Of a stretch of 6,402 nucleotides of DNA, positions 1 through 6,402 are shown one piece after another. This DNA is from Amoebophrya sp. A120. Lineage: Eukaryota; Protista; Dinoflagellata. The position numbers and the translations under genes are program-made. The notes under the pieces were generated by a model that had not been told where the DNA came from, did not search any database, and saw only the letters and a list, made by a program, of their open reading frames with translations. Every line of letters begins with the position of its first letter. Position 1 is the stretch's first letter. The stretch spans positions 1 through 6,402 of the forward strand of contig CAJINV010000110.1 of the NCBI GenBank assembly GCA_905178155.1. Reading direction: 5' to 3'.

Positions 1-1022
1 GGTTTTGGAAAGCATTTCCAACGCCCGGAACACCGCCACCTGGTTATCAGATGCAAAAGTGTCTGGGTCTGGAACAAAGCAACTTGTCATGCTAAATCTG
101 AATCATGTAAAAATCTGTGTTGCATCATTACCAAAAGCCGTCCACTTTTGACCTAATCGGGAGGCAGTTTCTCATGCGGGGTAGGCATGATAGAACTCGC
201 ACAGAATCTGTCATGCTATGTCCTACATACCAGACCCCATGGGTCATGGAAACCCTGCATGACAAGTCTGGCATTCTTCCAGACCCAAACATTTTTACAT
301 TTGATACTGGTCGATCGCGGATAAATGCACATAGCCGGAAATTTCCCGGTCCAAGTACGTGAACAGCCGTATCCTATGTAAAAACATCCCCACACCAATG
401 TCAAGATGGAAAATGTGCTAGACAAATCAACCAGCTTTGGTTGTTTCGCATGACAAATTTGGCCCCGTAGTGTGATCCTGTTTAGTTAGCTCCAGCAGCA
501 TAACAGGTCTAGCAGGTCATGCTGATTTGAGCATCACAAAATCCAAAACACGACGGGGAAATGCTTCGCATGGGGCTTCACATGAGAAACATTTTTGCCC
601 TGCAGATTTGCATGACAACTTTGGGGTGGGGATGTTTTTACTCAGAATATGCCGTCGTGGATTGCCGTCGTACCGGATCTCCCGGCAGAGCTCCCGCCAC
701 TGCTCGAAATCCAGGTTCACGCCGGAATACTGGTATGCAATACAAATTTAGCGTAGGTAGTTGCACGACGAAGCAGATGCACAAAGTGCATGACAAATTC
801 CGGCACCAGCATTAGAGCTGAAAGTTGTCATGGTAAATGGGCTGGGGAAACAGAAGATCTGTCATCGTCATGCAATAAGGTCATCATGATCATCTGCATC
901 TGTGTGTACTACGGTAAGAAGAACTTTGCTCTAGATAACTGCAAGATAATCTGCATAAACGCCTGCTTCGTCGATCCGTAGCGGACGTGAAGTCGCTCGA
1001 TGAACAGTTTCAAGTGGTTTTT
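1..1022 (-). CDS. Partial multi-exon gene, EF-hand-like repeat protein. Exons approx. 1022-942, 732-654, 368-311, 43-1; 5' part not found, 3' part runs off the window
   Basis: Removing three TIR elements plus one TSD each (209, 285 and 267 nt) gives 87 stop-free codons: KNHLKLFIERLHVRYGSTKQAFMQIILQYSGVNLDFEQWRELCREIRYDGNPRRLFTYLDREISGYVHLSAIDQVAVFRALEMLSKT. LFTYLDREISGYVHLSAID resembles a degenerate EF-hand loop. Exact junctions can slide within the TSDs. The product call is by motif resemblance only. Confidence 0.75.
45..306. mobile_element. Introner/MITE-like element E1 (262 bp), intron of the EF-hand-like gene
   Basis: Perfect TSD ctggt at 40-44 and 307-311. Left arm tatcagatgcaaaagtgtctgggtctggaacaaagcaacttgtcatgc; reverse complement of right arm tatcaaatgtaaaaatgtttgggtctggaagaatgccagacttgtcatgc. 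Confidence 0.9.
370..649. mobile_element. Introner/MITE-like element E2 (280 bp), intron of the EF-hand-like gene
   Basis: TSD agccg (365-369) / tgccg (650-654), 4 of 5 identical. Left arm tatcctatgtaaaaacatccccacaccaa; reverse complement of right arm tattctgagtaaaaacatccccaccccaa. Confidence 0.88.
734..937. mobile_element. Degenerate introner/MITE-like element E3 (204 bp), intron of the EF-hand-like gene
   Basis: TSD actgg (729-733) / actgc (938-942), 4 of 5 identical. TAT at both termini and an eroded IR (tatgcaatacaaattt...gcagatg vs tatctagagcaaagtt...gcagatg). Internal gcatgacaaat and ttgtcatg motifs. Removing 209 nt (not a multiple of 3) joins two open frames. Confidence 0.75.
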
Positions 1023-1023
1023 C

Positions 1024-1079
1024 TATCCTGTGCAAAAGTATCGCAGTCGTAGTAATTGCAAACATGCATTACAAATCTT
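1024..1079. mobile_element. Orphan terminal arm E4 of the tgcaaaagtatcg element family
   Basis: tatcctgtgcaaaagtatcg is identical over 20 bp to the reverse complement of the E5 right end. About 55 bp align with the E9 left arm. No partner arm or second ttttc TSD was found by eye. Confidence 0.8.
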
Positions 1080-2824
1080 GTTCGGGTTCCCGGATGATGT
1101 CGGACCCGTTATTCGCAGCAACACCGGCGCTGCCCCCAAAGCCCGAGGAAAGAACTCTCCATTCGTCACTTTCAGTTTCATCACATCCAATCTCCCATTT
1201 GCAGCCCGGTCCCCCGACTACAGCGCGAGCAAAGAGACCCGCTCTCTGCTGGTTCAAACAAAAAAACAAGAAGAATCTCATACTATTCTACAGATGAATT
1301 TGGAAACACATCAAACGAAATAAAGAAAAAGAAAATTATTATACAGGAAGAAGTACTGAAACTCAAGAAAGATGAACAAGCAGAGGTCTCGTCTCCCGTC
1401 ACTATCAATAAACCTATATCGTGAATACCAGCCTGCTCTATGATACGAGAATGTGCAAATGGTTGTTCATAAACGGCTTTCTTGGTCGGATCGAAATTTC
1501 GAGTCTGGGTACTAGTTCACTTCTATCTTTACATTTGCAGACTGGGATGATCGTGGAGATCCGACAGAGATTTTGTTGGCTGTAATATCGTCGGATCTGT
1601 GGCATTTAGCACGAAAAGACTTTCCTGGTGCAGATCTCTCTCCAGCATCAACTTCTGCTTCGTGTCGAAACAAGATTGAGACCGTTCTTGTCGGATCGCG
1701 GTCATTCTCTACTTTTCATTCACATTCTAGTAGGGAAAGGTATACAGATTTATGCTCTTAAACGAAGAGCGCCATGCGGTTGCGGCCAACAACAAAGTAC
1801 AAACTACACGATGTGATCGAACAAAGCTGCCAAATGAATTTGCCACGAGCTGGACAAGTTTCAACACGGCACCGTGTCCTGCACTACACTGGAAATTTAG
1901 TTTTTTCGCACGACTCACCTTTGAGTTTTCCGCGTATTTCACACATATAAAACATCCAACAAGGTTGGACATTTCGGGTGGTGGAGGTGATGTAAAGTAA
2001 GTATTATACATAGTCCTACCTCCTTCCTCTAGTGCTGTGTTTGCTGAGTGCGTGCTTTATTTTGTTTGTGAAAGTTTTTGATGAAACGCCGATCACCAGC
2101 AAGTATTCATTGGGTGAATAGCAGGCGCTCGTCCTCCAGATCGAGTAATTCTTTGTAGCTGTATTTCCCTGGAATTGACGTGGTACTTTGTACTACATTG
2201 CTTTTCAACATCGTGTACTACTTGGCAGCTCTGGTTGCATTCTCACATTAATAGAATACTGGCTCTTGATGTTCACTTCTTTAACAGTACAATGGCCTTA
2301 TCTTATTTTCTGCCGAAGCAGAAAAATCTTCATGCGACATTTTTGATTCATCTTTCCGTATCCGTTGACCACCACATGCAGCACATACGATGAAGGTCTT
2401 GTTTTTTAGTACCATACTTTGTAAAAAAGTACGACAAAAACTACTAGTTGTGTGCATTGTGTTCATTTTCGAGGTTAATGCTGTGGCGTGTCTTATGTTG
2501 ATGTTCTGTGGTTGTAGTAGTGTTTCCGTTCTTCTTTTATTCCGTGTTAGATATGGTCATGCTGACATAAAAATGACAATGACCCTCTACTGTTCCGTCT
2601 GTAATTAGCAGTGAACGACGTCCCAATTTATTCCGTGACGACGAGCAGGGAGGCATACAAACGGAAAAATCTCGAAAAATCTTCTTATATATCTACTTTC
2701 CCGCGTTGATGTTCATGTTCCATTTCGACTCCCGAAGTTTAAAGCATCAATCTGTCCTCCCCCTCTTCTTCTCATACCAGATTGACCAAGAAAAGACCCA
2801 ATTTACATTTAGCACTGAAGAAAT

Positions 2825-3784
2825 TTAGTGCTTCTTGCGCTGGGCGGCAATCTATGAACTGCAAAAGTATCGCACACGTATAAATGCATTACAAATTTTC
2901 TCAGCATGAGAAATAAAATTTGTAATGCTGATTTGCCTTGAGCTTGACAAAGAAATTTGTAATGCAAGACCAGCATTTATACGAGTACGATACTTTTGCA
3001 CAGGATACAATCGCCTCGGTCATCTCCTCACGCTTCTTCTTACCGCGCTTGTGCGTGCCCAACCTATAAAAGTGCACAACTCCCCCTCCCCCACATTTGT
3101 ATTGCATGAACAGCAACACAAGCAACAGCAGAAAAGGGGCCTTCGCATGACAAATCTACATGCGGATTGTAGTACTATTTGAGGTTCCAAAATTTGTCAT
3201 GCTAACAATGCTTACGTGTGAGTTTGGTATTTTGCATTACAAATGAGGGGGAGGGGGAGTTGTGCACAGTCATACAACCGCTTCTTGGCGTACTTCAACG
3301 CACGCTTCAGGGAGTATTAAATGCAAATATGTCTGGGTCTGGAGGGATGCAAGGTTTGTCATGCACATTTTGCATATCTCCTGATGTCTGTGATGCCTAC
3401 CCTAGCATCACATATTTTTCGAGGACTTCCTGATGCCTGTACCGCATGAGAAATGCCCTCGCACCGTGGCAAAAACTGGACCTCTTTTTCTGTTTATGCA
3501 ATACAGATTTTTGTAGAATCCAAATGCAGCATCACAAGTTGCATCCTTCCAGACCTACTAGACATATTTGCAATGCATAGGGAGGAGGCGGACCCCATCT
3601 TGATGAGCTCCATGACACGACGTTCATAGGGCGCGAAGCCCGCGGTCTCGCGGACCACCTCGCGAACGAGGGCGACTTTGGAGGAGAGCTTGCCCTTCAT
3701 ATTGGAGGGCTTTTGCTTCAGGGTGCGCACCGTGGTGACGTGACCACGTTCGCGGCCAGCGGCAATTCCGGAGCGGGGCGACAT
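2825..3784 (-). CDS. RPL36: 60S ribosomal protein L36 (eL36), 4 exons approx. 3784-3584, 3313-3279, 3063-3012, 2851-2825; 104 aa
   Basis: Spliced translation MSPRSGIAAGRERGHVTTVRTLKQKPSNMKGKLSSKVALVREVVRETAGFAPYERRVMELIKMGSASSLKRALKYAKKRLGTHKRGKKKREEMTEAIAAQRKKH*. It carries the eL36 motifs VREVxGFAPYERR and KRALKxAKKRLGTHKRGKxKREE and has normal length. ATG at 3784-3782, TAA at 2827-2825. Confidence 0.97.
2853..3007. mobile_element. Introner/MITE-like element E5 (155 bp), RPL36 intron 3
   Basis: Perfect TSD caatc at 2848-2852 and 3008-3012. Left arm tatgaactgcaaaagtatcgcacacgtataaatgc; reverse complement of right arm tatcctgtgcaaaagtatcgtactcgtataaatgc. Confidence 0.93.
3065..3274. mobile_element. 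Introner/MITE-like element E6 (210 bp), RPL36 intron 2 (GT-AG intron 3278-3064, 215 nt)
   Basis: Perfect TSD caacc at 3060-3064 and 3275-3279. Left arm tataaaagtgcacaactccccctcccccacatttgtattgca; reverse complement of right arm tatgactgtgcacaactccccctccccctcatttgtaatgca. Confidence 0.93.
3315..3579. mobile_element. Introner/MITE-like element E7 (265 bp), RPL36 intron 1 (non-canonical)
   Basis: Perfect TSD gggag at 3310-3314 and 3580-3584. Left arm tattaaatgcaaatatgtctgggtctggagggatgcaa; reverse complement of right arm tatgcattgcaaatatgtctagtaggtctggaaggatgcaa. Same IR family as E1. Confidence 0.93.
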
Positions 3785-5710
3785 GGCTTTGCGGTTTTGA
3801 TGTTTGGAGGTAAGTAGCAAGAAGAGGACAAAATGAAGAATAGATTTGCTCACGGTAAACTTGCAGGAGAGAACGCAAACGATTTCTCTATGCAAACTGA
3901 TAAATCTGGTTGAGCAGAAGCTCGGCCTGGAGGAAAAAAATCAAGGTGACATCGATAAATTTCATCAATTCGCAAGAAATTTTATGAGCCTTCTTCCATG
4001 CAAGACTACTTATTTCGCCACACGGATTGGATTTGGAACACGTCGTCGAAGCCACCGGATCGAAGATTTTTCTGCCTTTACAAACACAAACAGGGTCCTC
4101 ACGGATCTCGATTTTTCTCTTTTTTTCGGTCAACATTTCAACCATCGAAAGCACCAATGGATTTTCTTTCTGTGTTGCAGCTTCTGCTTCCTACTCATTC
4201 AATCATCATCGTGTTCATGAGGATCTTTATTTTCTGTGGAGAGTTGTATCAATTTAAATTTTCGAATTTTTCTAGGCGTGATTTTGATACTTCTACTCAC
4301 CAAGATGTAGTTCCACCGACGAGGACCTCACCTGGCGATGAGAATGATGTTGTGGGCTCTTTACTGAGTGATGGAAGAACAGGTGGAGCTTTTTGTTCCT
4401 TTCGAATTATGGGAATGGCGATGGCATAATTCTCTTGGATATCGCAGTCGTCCTCGAGCACCAGCGCCACAAGCCGGAGAATAATCGATCTGAAACTTCT
4501 TTCGATTTCCTTACCGCAACAAGGACATCGTGGTCTTTTATACAAATGCAAAAATCTGGTGGCGCTGAAGATCATCGATCGATCCTCATAGTCATGGGCG
4601 GCCAACTTTGGAGAAATATTTAGCAAATCGAGTTCATCAACAAGGTAGTTGCAGAGGCGCTTCAGGTGCCGAGTCCACCACGCAAGATGAAATAGTACAA
4701 CGCGTGGAGGCGCCGCAGCAGCGCAACCCAGAGTCTTTCTTCGGTCTGAAGACCCTCCTATTGCAAATTCTACTAGGAAGCTCAAGTCAAACGAAATAAT
4801 AATGGTTTTCGTTGTGTCTAGCAATATCAATCAAGTCAAAGCAAAGCTTATCTCCTTAAGCTAAAACGTTTTCGATTCATCATCAAAAGGTAGCGGTCGA
4901 GAAAGGTACTACGGCTATTCTGAAATTCTGTACTCTGGGTTTCGTCATTTGTTGCGTTTTTGTTCTACTCCGGACGTGCTGGTGTCATCGGTCATTGATA
5001 AAGTTTAGGTACACTGCAAAGTGCATAGAAGATATTTGAAGGAGCAGTGTAACTGTAATACTTCGCATTCATTTTCACTTTCTCAGCATTGCATTACTGT
5101 GTTGATTCGGTTTTGAAATTTGGTTTTAGTAGGGGTAAATAAGCAAACAAGTAAACAGAAGCTCAACTAGGCGCACGTCTCTTTGTGCGTCGAAAATAAA
5201 CGTCTTTCAAGCAGCGCCGCGCGCCGGCTAATAGAATTCCTGGTGACCACGCTTGCGCCGCTTGAGACGAGTTGGTGTATTATACAGGACATTATCAGCG
5301 ATGCATTCAAACAACAAGATTGGCACCTTCTTGACGAGGCCCTTTAATTTTCTGCATTATTGAAACAAGAGCGAAAAGAACTTCCGAAGGATGATGGATG
5401 GCGTGACGCTACGAGGGCGGTTGTTCTACTGGAGTGGTCGTAAACGTAGTCAGCACACTAAATATCAATTACTCCTCCTCCCCGAAGACGGCCTGAAACT
5501 CCTTAACAACTGAAACCCTGTCACGATCATCACCTGCTACTAGGAAAGTAAAAGTTAAAGTATAGTAGATTATTAGTAGATGATTGATTCGCGAATTACA
5601 CGACTAGTACTGTCCGGGTTCTTGCACCGGCAGTACCTACTGGGATTTAAAACAGACGCCACATCATTCAACACGGCTCGCCGGTTTGAAAATCCCCTTT
5701 GACCGGTTCT

Positions 5711-6286
5711 TTAATCCATTAGATCCCCTCCGCCCAAACCCTTCAACAAGTCTCCGTCTCCGCCACTCCCAGACCTCGCTTTTATCGGAGGCGGCCGCGG
5801 TTGCAGCCGGTCTAACTTCGTCCCGCCGGCGGCCGCCCCGCCGCCGCCCGCCGCGCCGCCCCCACCTAGTTGCCCCTGGATCCAGGAGAAGACGGGAATC
5901 GCGTCGGCCTTCTTCTGGACCTTGGCTTTCATACGGTCGCTACTCCGCTATGCATTGCAAAAGTGTCGCGCGTTGTACTAGTAAAAATAGCATCACAAAT
6001 TTTGGCAAGAACAAAAGTGGAAGTTGTAATGCTGTTTCAGGTTTGGAAAGAGATTTGTCATGCATGAGTGCAATTTCAACGAGTCGTGCGATACTTTTGT
6101 AATGCATATCCGCTCCACATGGACCATTTCGTAGAGCATCTGCGTCGCCCGGTTCCACTCGTTATCTAGCACATGGTGCCGCGGGTTCCAGTGCGACCGC
6201 AAGTCGTCCGTTAGTTTTACCCCCTCAAACGCCGGCCCGCGCTGGAAGGTGTTGCTGTGGGCGATGCGAACTTCGTCGAGCGAGCT
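5711..6286 (-). CDS. Last two exons (approx. 6286-6113 and 5947-5711) of a hypothetical protein with a Gly/Ala-rich C-terminus
   Basis: GC-rich, coding-like sequence. Removing E8 plus one TSD (165 nt, containing an in-frame stop) gives SSLDEVRIAHSNTFQRGPAFEGVKLTDDLRSHWNPRHHVLDNEWNRATQMLYEMVHVERSSDRMKAKVQKKADAIPVFSWIQGQLGGGGAAGGGGAAAGG...GGDLMD*. No family recognised. Confidence 0.75.
5823..5863. repeat. GC-rich (CCG)-like low-complexity tract encoding GGGAAGGGGAAAGG on the minus strand
   Basis: ccgccggcggccgccccgccgccgcccgccgcgccgccccc read directly from the sequence. Confidence 0.7.
5949..6108. mobile_element. Introner/MITE-like element E8 (160 bp), intron of the hypothetical gene
   Basis: Perfect TSD tccgc at 5944-5948 and 6109-6113. 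Left arm tatgcattgcaaaagtgtcgc; reverse complement of right arm tatgcattacaaaagtatcgc. Confidence 0.9.
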
Positions 6287-6287
6287 G

Positions 6288-6402
6288 TATGAACTGCAAA
6301 AGTATCGTACTCGTAGTAATGGCAGTCATGCATTACAAATCTTTTTCTTAAGGTAGATCCGCATTACAAATTTCATTTCTCATGCTGCGAAAATTTGTAA
6401 TG
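6288..6402. mobile_element. Introner/MITE-like element E9, partial (runs off the window)
   Basis: Begins tatgaactgcaaaagtatcg, identical over 20 bp to the E5 left end. Contains gcattacaaat twice and atttgtaatg. Predicted TSD agctg (6283-6287). Confidence 0.85.

What the first reader, a model, noticed from the sequence alone, without database searches (positions are those of the whole stretch)
83..6402. Recurrent internal motif GCAT(G/C/T)ACAAAT in both orientations inside every element
Seen, approximate positions: cttgtcatgc 83, gcatgacaag 257, gcatgacaaat 448/788/3146, gcatcacaaa 531/5990, gcattacaaat 1066/2886/3234/6330/6361, atttgtaatgc 2918/2955, atttgtcatgc 3192/6053, and a gcatgagaaa variant at 2904/3444. 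The motif is shared across families with otherwise different IRs. I did not see it in exons or intergenic DNA. Inference: subterminal transposase-binding sites, nested RNA hairpins, or a strand-symmetric splicing signal that would let an element work in either orientation.
Basis: partly seen in the sequence, partly recalled or inferred. Interest (0 to 1): 0.7.

Follow-up and report, generated by a model that had tools for sequence, protein, structure and literature searches.

The report
Spaced protein-site array inside mobile introns
All the transposon-derived introns examined carry one or more copies of the same nine-base word, often in pairs 31-32 bases apart and on either strand of the transcript, so it is likely a DNA docking site for the still unidentified protein that moves them rather than a splicing signal.

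Summary
The motif is real: 21 exact GCATBACAA copies against 0.19 expected, all inside nine TAT...ATA elements with 5-nt target duplications. These match published A120-type Amoebophrya introners; all seven complete ones are skipped exactly in RNA-like contigs. In a related assembly, 462 of 462 elements called without using the motif hold it (76 expected), across families with unrelated ends. 'Both orientations in every element' is too strong (407 of 462; window E2 has one). The data point to DNA, not RNA: sense 674 vs antisense 713 copies, no fixed distance to the 3' end, no covariation between mirror copies, a same-direction pair 31-32 bp apart in 9 of 13 families with unrelated spacers (null at most 7), and decay at about the target-duplication rate, equal inside and outside reading frames. 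Best reading: a binding array for the unidentified mobilising protein; binding is untested and no transposase was found. Eight literature searches and three look-ups in this scan's notes gave no description of the motif.

The parts
45..306 (.). E1, introner (GTCTGGG-end family), TAT...ATA, TSD CTGGT; motif copies at 84(-), about 115(-, weak; 31 bp from the first), 169(-, GAG variant), 208(-), 257(+)
   Evidence: skipped as 267 nt = 262 + 5 in RNA-like contigs
370..649 (.). E2, introner (CCCC-end, 280-nt family), TSD AGCCG/TGCCG; five motif copies, all on + strand (417 weak, 448, about 498 weak, 531, 610), i.e. all antisense to the host transcript; pairs 31 and 33 bp apart
   Evidence: skipped as 285 nt
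734..937 (.). E3, introner with unlike, poorly pairing ends, TSD ACTGG/ACTGC; one strong copy at 788(+), weak ones at about 809(+) and 825(-); none within 100 nt of the right end
   Evidence: skipped as 209 nt, with low-depth unspliced contigs too
1024..1083 (.). E4, left arm only of a GTATCG-family element with motif at 1066(+); truncated, no right end or TSD
   Evidence: (D7); RNA contigs leave the window at 1023
2853..3007 (.). E5, introner (GTATCG family, 155 nt) in RPL36, TSD CAATC; copies at 2886(+), 2904(+, GAG), 2920(-), 2942(+, weak), 2957(-)
   Evidence: skipped as 160 nt
3065..3274 (.). E6, introner in RPL36, TSD CAACC; copies at 3097(-), 3113(+), 3145(+; 32 bp from 3113), 3194(-), 3234(+)
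   Evidence: skipped as 215 nt
3315..3579 (.). E7, introner in RPL36, TSD GGGAG; copies at 3356(-), 3388(-), 3405(+), 3444(+, GAG), 3498(+), 3529(+); pairs 32 and 31 bp apart
   Evidence: skipped as 270 nt
5949..6108 (.). E8, introner (GTATCG family), TSD TCCGC; copies at 5990(+), 6024(-), 6055(-; 31 bp from 6024); its right terminus is TAT followed directly by an exact motif copy (6097-6105)
   Evidence: skipped as 165 nt
6288..6402 (.). E9, GTATCG-family introner cut by the window end; copies at 6330(+), 6361(+; 31 bp apart), 6377(-, GAG) and a copy cut at the window end
2825..3784 (-). Ribosomal protein L36 coding sequence, interrupted by E7, E6 and E5
   Evidence: Pfam PF01158 E 6.7e-21; frames; transcript contig 1895-3957
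3932..6287 (-). 3' part of a long transcribed gene (exons 6109-6287 and 3932-5948), interrupted by E8; no motif in the exons apart from one weak hit at 4174
1..1023 (-). Four short exons (1-44, 307-369, 650-733, 938-1023) that lie upstream in the same transcript contig as the gene at 3932-6287; apparently a partial duplicate ending in truncated E4
   Evidence: record positions; DNA-like run X1 contig depth 53-67 here vs 26-33 elsewhere

Best explanation
The motif GCA(T/a)(G/T/C)A(C/g)A(A/g) is repeated three to five times inside TAT...ATA introner elements of many otherwise unrelated families, and is likely a double-stranded-DNA binding site for one shared protein that the elements need in order to move (the transposase or an accessory factor). 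Shown: presence in every called element, rarity outside, indifference to transcription direction, a recurring same-direction pair 31-32 bp apart (three helical turns) with unrelated spacer sequence, first copy 36-59 bp inside the end. Inferred: protein molecules bound on one helical face would coat and pair the two ends, the catalytic domain would cut at TAT...ATA and insert with a 5-bp stagger; only copies with intact arrays would found new bursts, which would keep the motif conserved across families while each inserted copy then decays. Removal from RNA would depend on the paired ends rather than on this motif.
For: 462 of 462 motif-blind element calls hold an internal copy at one mismatch, 435 exactly, 76 expected from shuffles; 286 of 286 after dropping the family that the search pattern selected. 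9.52 per kb in elements vs 0.16 per kb in single-copy DNA. Element orientation vs host gene about even (family 0 62:65, family 1 46:40, family 3 13:11). Sense 674 vs antisense 713 copies, same variant use on both strands; 22 of 347 elements lack a sense copy and 20 lack an antisense copy. E2 is skipped exactly with antisense copies only. 31-32 bp same-direction pair in 9 of 13 families; random placement gives mean 1.0, at most 7 in 20,000 runs, and at most 7 in 5,000 runs for the best of any 2-nt window; spacer identity between families 0.36 vs 0.34 shuffled. Divergent pairs at 16-17, 46-49, 59, 68 bp fit a 10.5-bp period at half-turn phase (R 0.86, n 11). Invariant positions 3.65% non-consensus (326 of 8926), TSD mismatch 5.5% (116 of 2125), coding 3.64% vs not called coding 3.72% (p 0.89), higher when the TSD is mismatched (4.57 vs 3.35%, p 0.011). 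5-bp TSD in 220 of 424 end pairs, other lengths near zero. Precedent: Lemi1 proteins bind subterminal repeats of the Emigrant MITE cooperatively (PMC1636448, abstract).
Against: No binding was shown and no candidate protein found: 0 transposase or integrase domains in 82 of 206 long ORFs scanned; the source paper reports no transposase in A120 (PMC7789003, passage). Phasing is incomplete: convergent pairs not significant at 10.5 bp (p 0.08), exceptions at 18 and 49 (same direction) and 33-34, 65 (convergent); distance from the end is phased only weakly for outward copies (p 0.02-0.04) and not for inward ones (p 0.44). Families are not fully independent (modules and terminal heptamers are shared). 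Copies fill the whole interior rather than only the ends, their direction relative to the end differs between families, and some ends lack one (E3; L009:505-1608). Folding predicts that copies often pair with each other (0.41-0.55 per base in four families, 0.13 in the fifth; interior z -1.4 to -3.0). The decay test has little power against a need for just one of several copies, and 'not called coding' includes UTR introns.
Confidence: 0.6

Rival explanations
1. The motif is the DNA site of a host chromatin or transcription-coupled protein that the elements have co-opted; bound on the DNA it marks the element as an intron and recruits the cutting machinery to the nascent hairpin, so it serves splicing in either orientation.
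For: [quoted passage not shown]
Against: Individual copies decay at about the TSD rate, equally in coding and other positions; E3, with one strong copy and no regular pair, is still skipped exactly, though with some unspliced contigs; single-copy DNA, which should hold older introns, has near-background isolated copies (15 vs 4-12).
Confidence: 0.16
2. The copies are arms of nested RNA (or single-stranded DNA) hairpins that compact the intron and bring its ends together.
For: Predicted pairing of copies with each other in four of five families and negative interior z-scores; E5 folds 2886-2899 with 2915-2928 as a perfect stem; columns 92 and 103 of family 0 covary C-G/G-C (0.72 vs 0.39).
Against: Middle base of mirror copies agrees no more than chance (family 0 0.57 vs 0.54, n 167; family 1 0.26 vs 0.41, n 95); among 61 sister pairs 0 to 1 compensatory vs 12 to 19 one-sided changes; the 92-103 signal gave 0 compensatory sister pairs and follows subfamilies; a hairpin would not need one fixed sequence in all families; family 3 has copies in one orientation only.
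Confidence: 0.09
3. The motif is a by-product: an ancestral terminal sequence copied inwards by duplication and spread by recombination between elements, with no function now.
For: Some termini are TAT plus an exact motif (E8 right end); left, middle and right thirds of family 0 are weakly correlated (0.21-0.31) and terminal heptamers are shared between families, so exchange does occur.
Against: Motif columns stay at 90% or more while the middle base and the spacers diverge (family 0: 29 of 44 motif columns vs 9 of 39 others; family 1: 38 of 108 vs 7 of 88); A is avoided at the middle base (8 of 980); spacing is kept with unrelated spacers.
Confidence: 0.1
4. The motif is a branch-point-like signal read by an altered U2 snRNA, usable on either strand because both readings contain U-N-A-Y.
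For: The free position sits just before an invariant A, as in the yUnAy branch consensus (recalled, from no call).
Against: No strand bias, no 5'/3' asymmetry, nearest sense copy 34 to 117 nt (5th-95th percentile) from the 3' end in several modes; invariant G1, C2, A3 and A8 cannot pair with one snRNA in both readings; 22 elements lack a sense copy.
Confidence: 0.04

Closest known systems
Introner elements of Amoebophrya sp. A120 (Farhat et al. 2021, PMC7789003; sections 11 and 12 read whole, other passages, supplement text searched, figures not seen)
   Same: Ends start TAT, about seven loose bases, then a run of A; short direct repeats at the borders; non-canonical splice ends; many families; family lengths like those tabulated for A120 (149, 160, 208, 214-227, 252-261, 278, 305, 319-321 bp) in PMC12130899 supplement file 8 (rows 1-21 of 58 seen).
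   Different: The text read groups elements by terminal IR and describes no shared interior motif or spacing rule; it gives DRs as 3-5 nt, whereas here the duplication is uniformly 5 nt.
MITEs with subterminal transposase-binding repeats, e.g. Arabidopsis Emigrant bound by pogo-like Lemi1 (PMC1636448, abstract only)
   Same: Short non-coding TIR elements with repeated motifs inside the ends, proposed to be bound cooperatively in trans.
   Different: Here the motif runs through the whole interior, is shared by families with unrelated TIRs, TSD is 5 nt of any sequence, the elements are spliced out exactly, and no partner transposase is known.
Integrase-like DNA transposons: Ginger2 (4-5 bp TSD) and IS481EU (TNT..AYA ends) (PMC10045372, passages); A120 family 38 with TIRs and Copia/Gypsy-like ORFs (PMC12130899, passage)
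   Same: TAT...ATA fits TNT..AYA; 5-bp TSD fits Ginger2 and LTR integrases.
   Different: IS481EU makes about 4, 15 or 25 bp TSDs; no transposase sequence here, so no superfamily can be assigned.
SOS splicing of DNA transposons in animals (PMC12779559, passages)
   Same: Removal from RNA without GU-AG, in elements whose ends can base-pair.
   Different: SOS splicing is imprecise; here all seven joints remove element plus one TSD exactly in the contigs (contigs hide minor forms). It involves no interior motif in the passages read.

Membership tests
A120-type Amoebophrya introner (PMC7789003) | Inverted repeat at both ends starting TAT, about seven loose bases, then three or more A | tested here: met
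   (A at 85-92% in positions 11-13)
A120-type Amoebophrya introner (PMC7789003) | 3-5 nt direct repeat at the exon/intron borders | tested here: met
   5-nt TSD exact in 5 of 7 complete window elements, 4 of 5 bases in the other two; 220 of 424 end pairs in the loci
A120-type Amoebophrya introner (PMC7789003) | Removed from RNA without GT-AG ends | tested here: met
   7 of 7 joints in four contig sets, one study, two samples, RNA status a guess of the tool; 17 of 275 allow GT/GC-AG
A120-type Amoebophrya introner (PMC7789003) | Repeated across the genome in families | tested here: met
   summed contig depth over elements hundreds to thousands of times that of exons in run X1, E3 far less; 13 multi-copy families
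A120-type Amoebophrya introner (PMC7789003) | Host is Amoebophrya | not tested
   inferred only from end consensus and family lengths; organism names were coded
MITE with subterminal transposase-binding repeats | TIRs, fixed-length TSD, no coding capacity | tested here: met
   no Rfam match in the window
MITE with subterminal transposase-binding repeats | Repeated motif a short way inside both ends | tested here: inconclusive
   first copy 36-59 bp inside most ends, but copies fill the interior and some ends lack one (E3, family 3, L009)
MITE with subterminal transposase-binding repeats | Motif bound by the cognate transposase | not testable with these tools
   needs a binding assay
MITE with subterminal transposase-binding repeats | Autonomous partner with the same ends | tested here: inconclusive
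   none in 551 kb; one 1104-nt element with a 238-aa ORF without Pfam match; 82 of 206 long ORFs scanned
IS481EU / Ginger2 | Characteristic TSD length and termini | tested here: inconclusive
   TAT..ATA fits IS481EU TNT..AYA but its TSD lengths do not; 5 bp fits Ginger2; no transposase to place
Spliceosomal branch point | On the sense strand only | tested here: not met
   674 sense vs 713 antisense, p 0.31
Spliceosomal branch point | Narrow window before the 3' splice site | tested here: not met
   multimodal, 34-117 nt
Spliceosomal branch point | Complementary to the organism's U2 snRNA | not testable with these tools
   no genome held; snRNA alignments are figures, not in the supplement text
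SOS splicing substrate | Imprecise excision near paired ITRs | tested here: not met
   exact joints only, with the limit that contigs drop rare forms

The most novel reading that the evidence does not exclude
One sequence-specific DNA-binding protein coats every introner through this phased array and does three jobs: it assembles the ends for transposition, draws new insertions to within 35-90 bp of resident elements, and marks the element on the DNA for exact removal from the nascent RNA in a lineage with no detectable U1 snRNA, i.e. introns defined on the DNA rather than on the RNA.
Probability: 0.12. Interest if true: 0.92.

Novelty: new variant of a known kind. Interest (0 to 1): 0.58.

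Why it matters
How tens of thousands of A120-type introners move is open: the genome paper found no transposase in A120 and nearly 2,000 families with no common family-level IR. A single interior word shared by all families, with a fixed spacing, suggests that one protein serves them all and gives a ready bait to catch it. It also separates two jobs that were lumped together: paired ends for removal from RNA, interior array for action on DNA. Practically, the motif plus TAT...ATA and a 5-nt duplication finds these introns without RNA data.

Tried and rejected
The same pattern found nothing in viral contigs. Raw-read run X9 laid only 88 partial reads on element pieces and told nothing; no holder was on record as RNA. 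No Rfam match in the window. Search for an autonomous element was negative within its limits. Local hopping as the cause of close neighbours was rejected: 15 of 127 close pairs share a family (20% expected) and are no more alike than random; hot regions were rejected too (short gaps not serially correlated); no 10.5-bp period in gap length or in gap plus motif distance. Two of my own comparisons were faulty and were redone: the TAT coding/non-coding contrast (circular; redone, 1.43 vs 1.55%) and column pairs 78-111 and 47-111 (off by one; redone). Of 470 possible inputs to, 8 overlapping or over-long calls were dropped from 322; one search used 425 of 443 HMM copies (TSD at least 3 of 5, length within 20%) and 18 of 29 consensus sites (those under 20% change per position). 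A 16-bp lattice fits convergent pairs better than 10.5 bp (R 0.82) and is not excluded. RBFOX-like or RNA-protein readings were dropped because of strand indifference. Roy et al. 2023 (Curr Biol) is not held and was not read; figures S19-S25 of PMC7789003 and files 13-14 of the PMC12130899 supplement were not seen and could show the motif.
Full report
Observation. GCATBACAA occurs 21 times against 0.19 expected. All 21 lie in nine elements that begin TAT and end ATA; the 4684 nt outside give one weak matrix hit and one one-mismatch copy.

What the elements are. Seven elements are complete, each flanked by a 5-nt duplication (5 exact, 2 with one mismatch). Three interrupt a minus-strand RPL36 gene (PF01158). 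In four contig sets that the tool guesses to be RNA (one study, two samples), each of the seven is skipped with exactly five more bases: 267, 285, 209, 160, 215, 270 and 165 nt. The end pattern matches the published A120-type Amoebophrya introner (TAT, seven loose bases, three or more A; PMC7789003 section 11), and family lengths match those tabulated for A120 (PMC12130899 supplement file 8, rows 1-21 of 58). The host was not tested directly.

Larger sample. No genome was held. A pattern scan gave 145 loci of one related assembly, 551 kb non-redundant, whose elements are 67-80% identical to the window's over full length. Elements were called from TAT...ATA, a TSD of at least 4 of 5 bases and end-to-end similarity only; one shuffle gave 1 call at that threshold. 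Of 462 elements in 13 multi-copy families and 32 singletons, 462 hold an internal copy at one mismatch and 435 an exact one; shuffled interiors give 76. Family 0 (176 copies) was selected by the search pattern; the other 286 all hold it. Density is 9.52 per kb in called elements, 4.69 in other repeated DNA and 0.16 in single-copy DNA; 15 of the 61 single-copy hits are isolated, against 4-12 expected. Both orientations occur in 407 of 462, so 'every element' is too strong. The matrix is G C A (T 90, A 8) (G 46, T 32, C 20, A 2) A (C 89, G 9) A (A 84, G 14). Motif columns make up most of the well-conserved interior in families 0-2 and about half in families 3-4.

RNA or DNA. Host strand was called for 353 of 462 elements from reading frames restored in silico; calls agree along each locus and with the Pfam hits. 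Elements sit in both orientations about equally. Among 347, sense and antisense copies number 674 and 713, with the same variants; 22 lack a sense copy and 20 an antisense copy; the 5' and 3' ends have the same consensus; the last sense copy lies 34-117 nt from the 3' end in several modes; only 17 of 275 allow GT/GC-AG. In the window E2 has antisense copies only and is skipped exactly. This argues against a single-strand RNA signal or branch point. U2 complementarity could not be tested.

Hairpins. Folding predicts that the ends pair (0.73-0.85 per base) and that motif copies often pair with each other (0.41-0.55; 0.13 in family 3), with interior z-scores of -1.4 to -3.0 (14 copies per family). 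But the free middle base does not covary between mirror copies (family 0 0.57 vs 0.54; family 1 0.26 vs 0.41; site-wise table), and sister pairs on a tree show 0-1 compensatory against 12-19 one-sided changes. The one strong complementary signal in family 0 (columns 92-103) follows subfamilies. Stems are a likely consequence, not the reason for the fixed sequence.

Spacing. A same-direction pair 31-32 bp apart is modal in 9 of 13 families and present at 31-33 bp in six window elements. Random placement gives at most 7 families, also for the best of any window; spacers are no more alike between families (0.36) than shuffled (0.34). It is rigid: 143 of 201 family-0 copies and 64 of 74 family-1 copies have exactly 31. 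Divergent pairs fall at 16-17, 46-49, 59 and 68 (10.5-bp R 0.86, n 11); same-direction pairs R 0.51 (p 0.003, driven by the 31-32 class); convergent pairs are not significant (p 0.08) and fit 16 bp better. Outward-reading first copies sit at 36-38, 45-48 or 56-59 bp from the end (p 0.02-0.04), inward ones are not phased. Families share modules, so these tests overstate independence. Three helical turns with free spacer sequence is what proteins bound on one face of double-stranded DNA would impose (inference).

After insertion. In 425 of 443 HMM-called full-length copies, invariant motif positions differ from consensus at 3.65%, TSD pairs at 5.5%, TIR columns at 5.4%, TAT at 1.45% (biased low by end calling). 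The motif rate is the same in elements inside reading frames and in the rest (3.64 vs 3.72%), and higher in elements with a mismatched TSD (4.57 vs 3.35%, p 0.011). This fits selection during copying followed by decay. It cannot exclude a need for one of several copies.

Mechanism. Most likely a shared mobilising protein binds the array, pairs the ends and cuts at TAT...ATA with a 5-bp stagger (inferred; precedent for cooperative binding to subterminal repeats in PMC1636448, abstract). No such protein was found: 82 of 206 long ORFs gave no transposase domain, and the genome paper reports none in A120; PMC12130899 describes an A120 family with TIRs and Copia/Gypsy-like ORFs (passage), a candidate not tested here. 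A side result fits action on DNA: 127 of 375 gaps between neighbouring elements are 30-89 nt (34 expected, at most 52; only 2 below 30), without family sharing or runs; its link to the motif is untested, and linker-biased insertion is known for introners (PMC9860276, passages).

Novelty. The elements are known. Eight searches, passages of PMC7789003, PMC12130899, PMC11282704, PMC11453091, PMC9860276, PMC12779559 and PMC10045372, and supplement text searches (12 of 14 files in the last) gave no description of an interior motif; figures, two supplement files and Roy et al. 2023 were not seen. This scan's notes hold no earlier record of it. Verdict: real, a new cis-feature of a known element class, most likely a phased DNA-binding array; interest 0.58.

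Noticed in passing
loci L001-L070 and L122-L123 (segments of 2 kb or more); window exons 307-369, 650-733, 938-1023, 3008-3064, 3275-3314: Neighbouring elements are very often 35-90 nt apart: 127 of 375 gaps are 30-89 nt against 34 expected, 2 are under 30; neighbours are not relatives and short gaps do not come in runs. New insertions seem drawn to the flank of a resident element.
   Followed up: partly
window 1-1083: The four left exons lie about 2.1 kb upstream of exon 6109-6288 in the same transcript contig, have about double DNA contig depth, and end in truncated element E4: a recent partial duplicate of the right-hand gene, or an assembly fault.
   Followed up: partly
element ends, positions 4-7: The two ends of one element agree at positions 1-3 (96-98%) and 8-14 (84-97%) but no more than chance at 4-7, so the predicted terminal stem has a 3-bp cap, an often unpaired 4-nt stretch and then a helix; the same terminal heptamers recur in different families.
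   Followed up: partly
L009:505-1608: 1104-nt element with TAT...ATA ends, exact 5-nt TSD and near-perfect TIR; motif copies only in the left 270 nt, low-complexity interior, 238-aa ORF without Pfam match.
   Followed up: partly
window 734-937: E3 has unlike, poorly pairing ends and one strong motif copy, yet is skipped exactly; low-depth contigs that retain it are seen in two runs.
   Followed up: no
family 0 vs others: Family 0 (about 150 nt, near a nucleosome core length, recalled) has its first copy reading inward at unphased distances (38-53 bp), unlike most other families; it shares an 18/16/34-bp three-site module with families 2 and 8.
   Followed up: no
window 1895-3957 and 3932-5943: Transcript contigs of RPL36 and of the gene to its right meet or overlap near 3932-3957 and one contig spans both; both have long 3' untranslated parts with no elements in them.
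   Followed up: no
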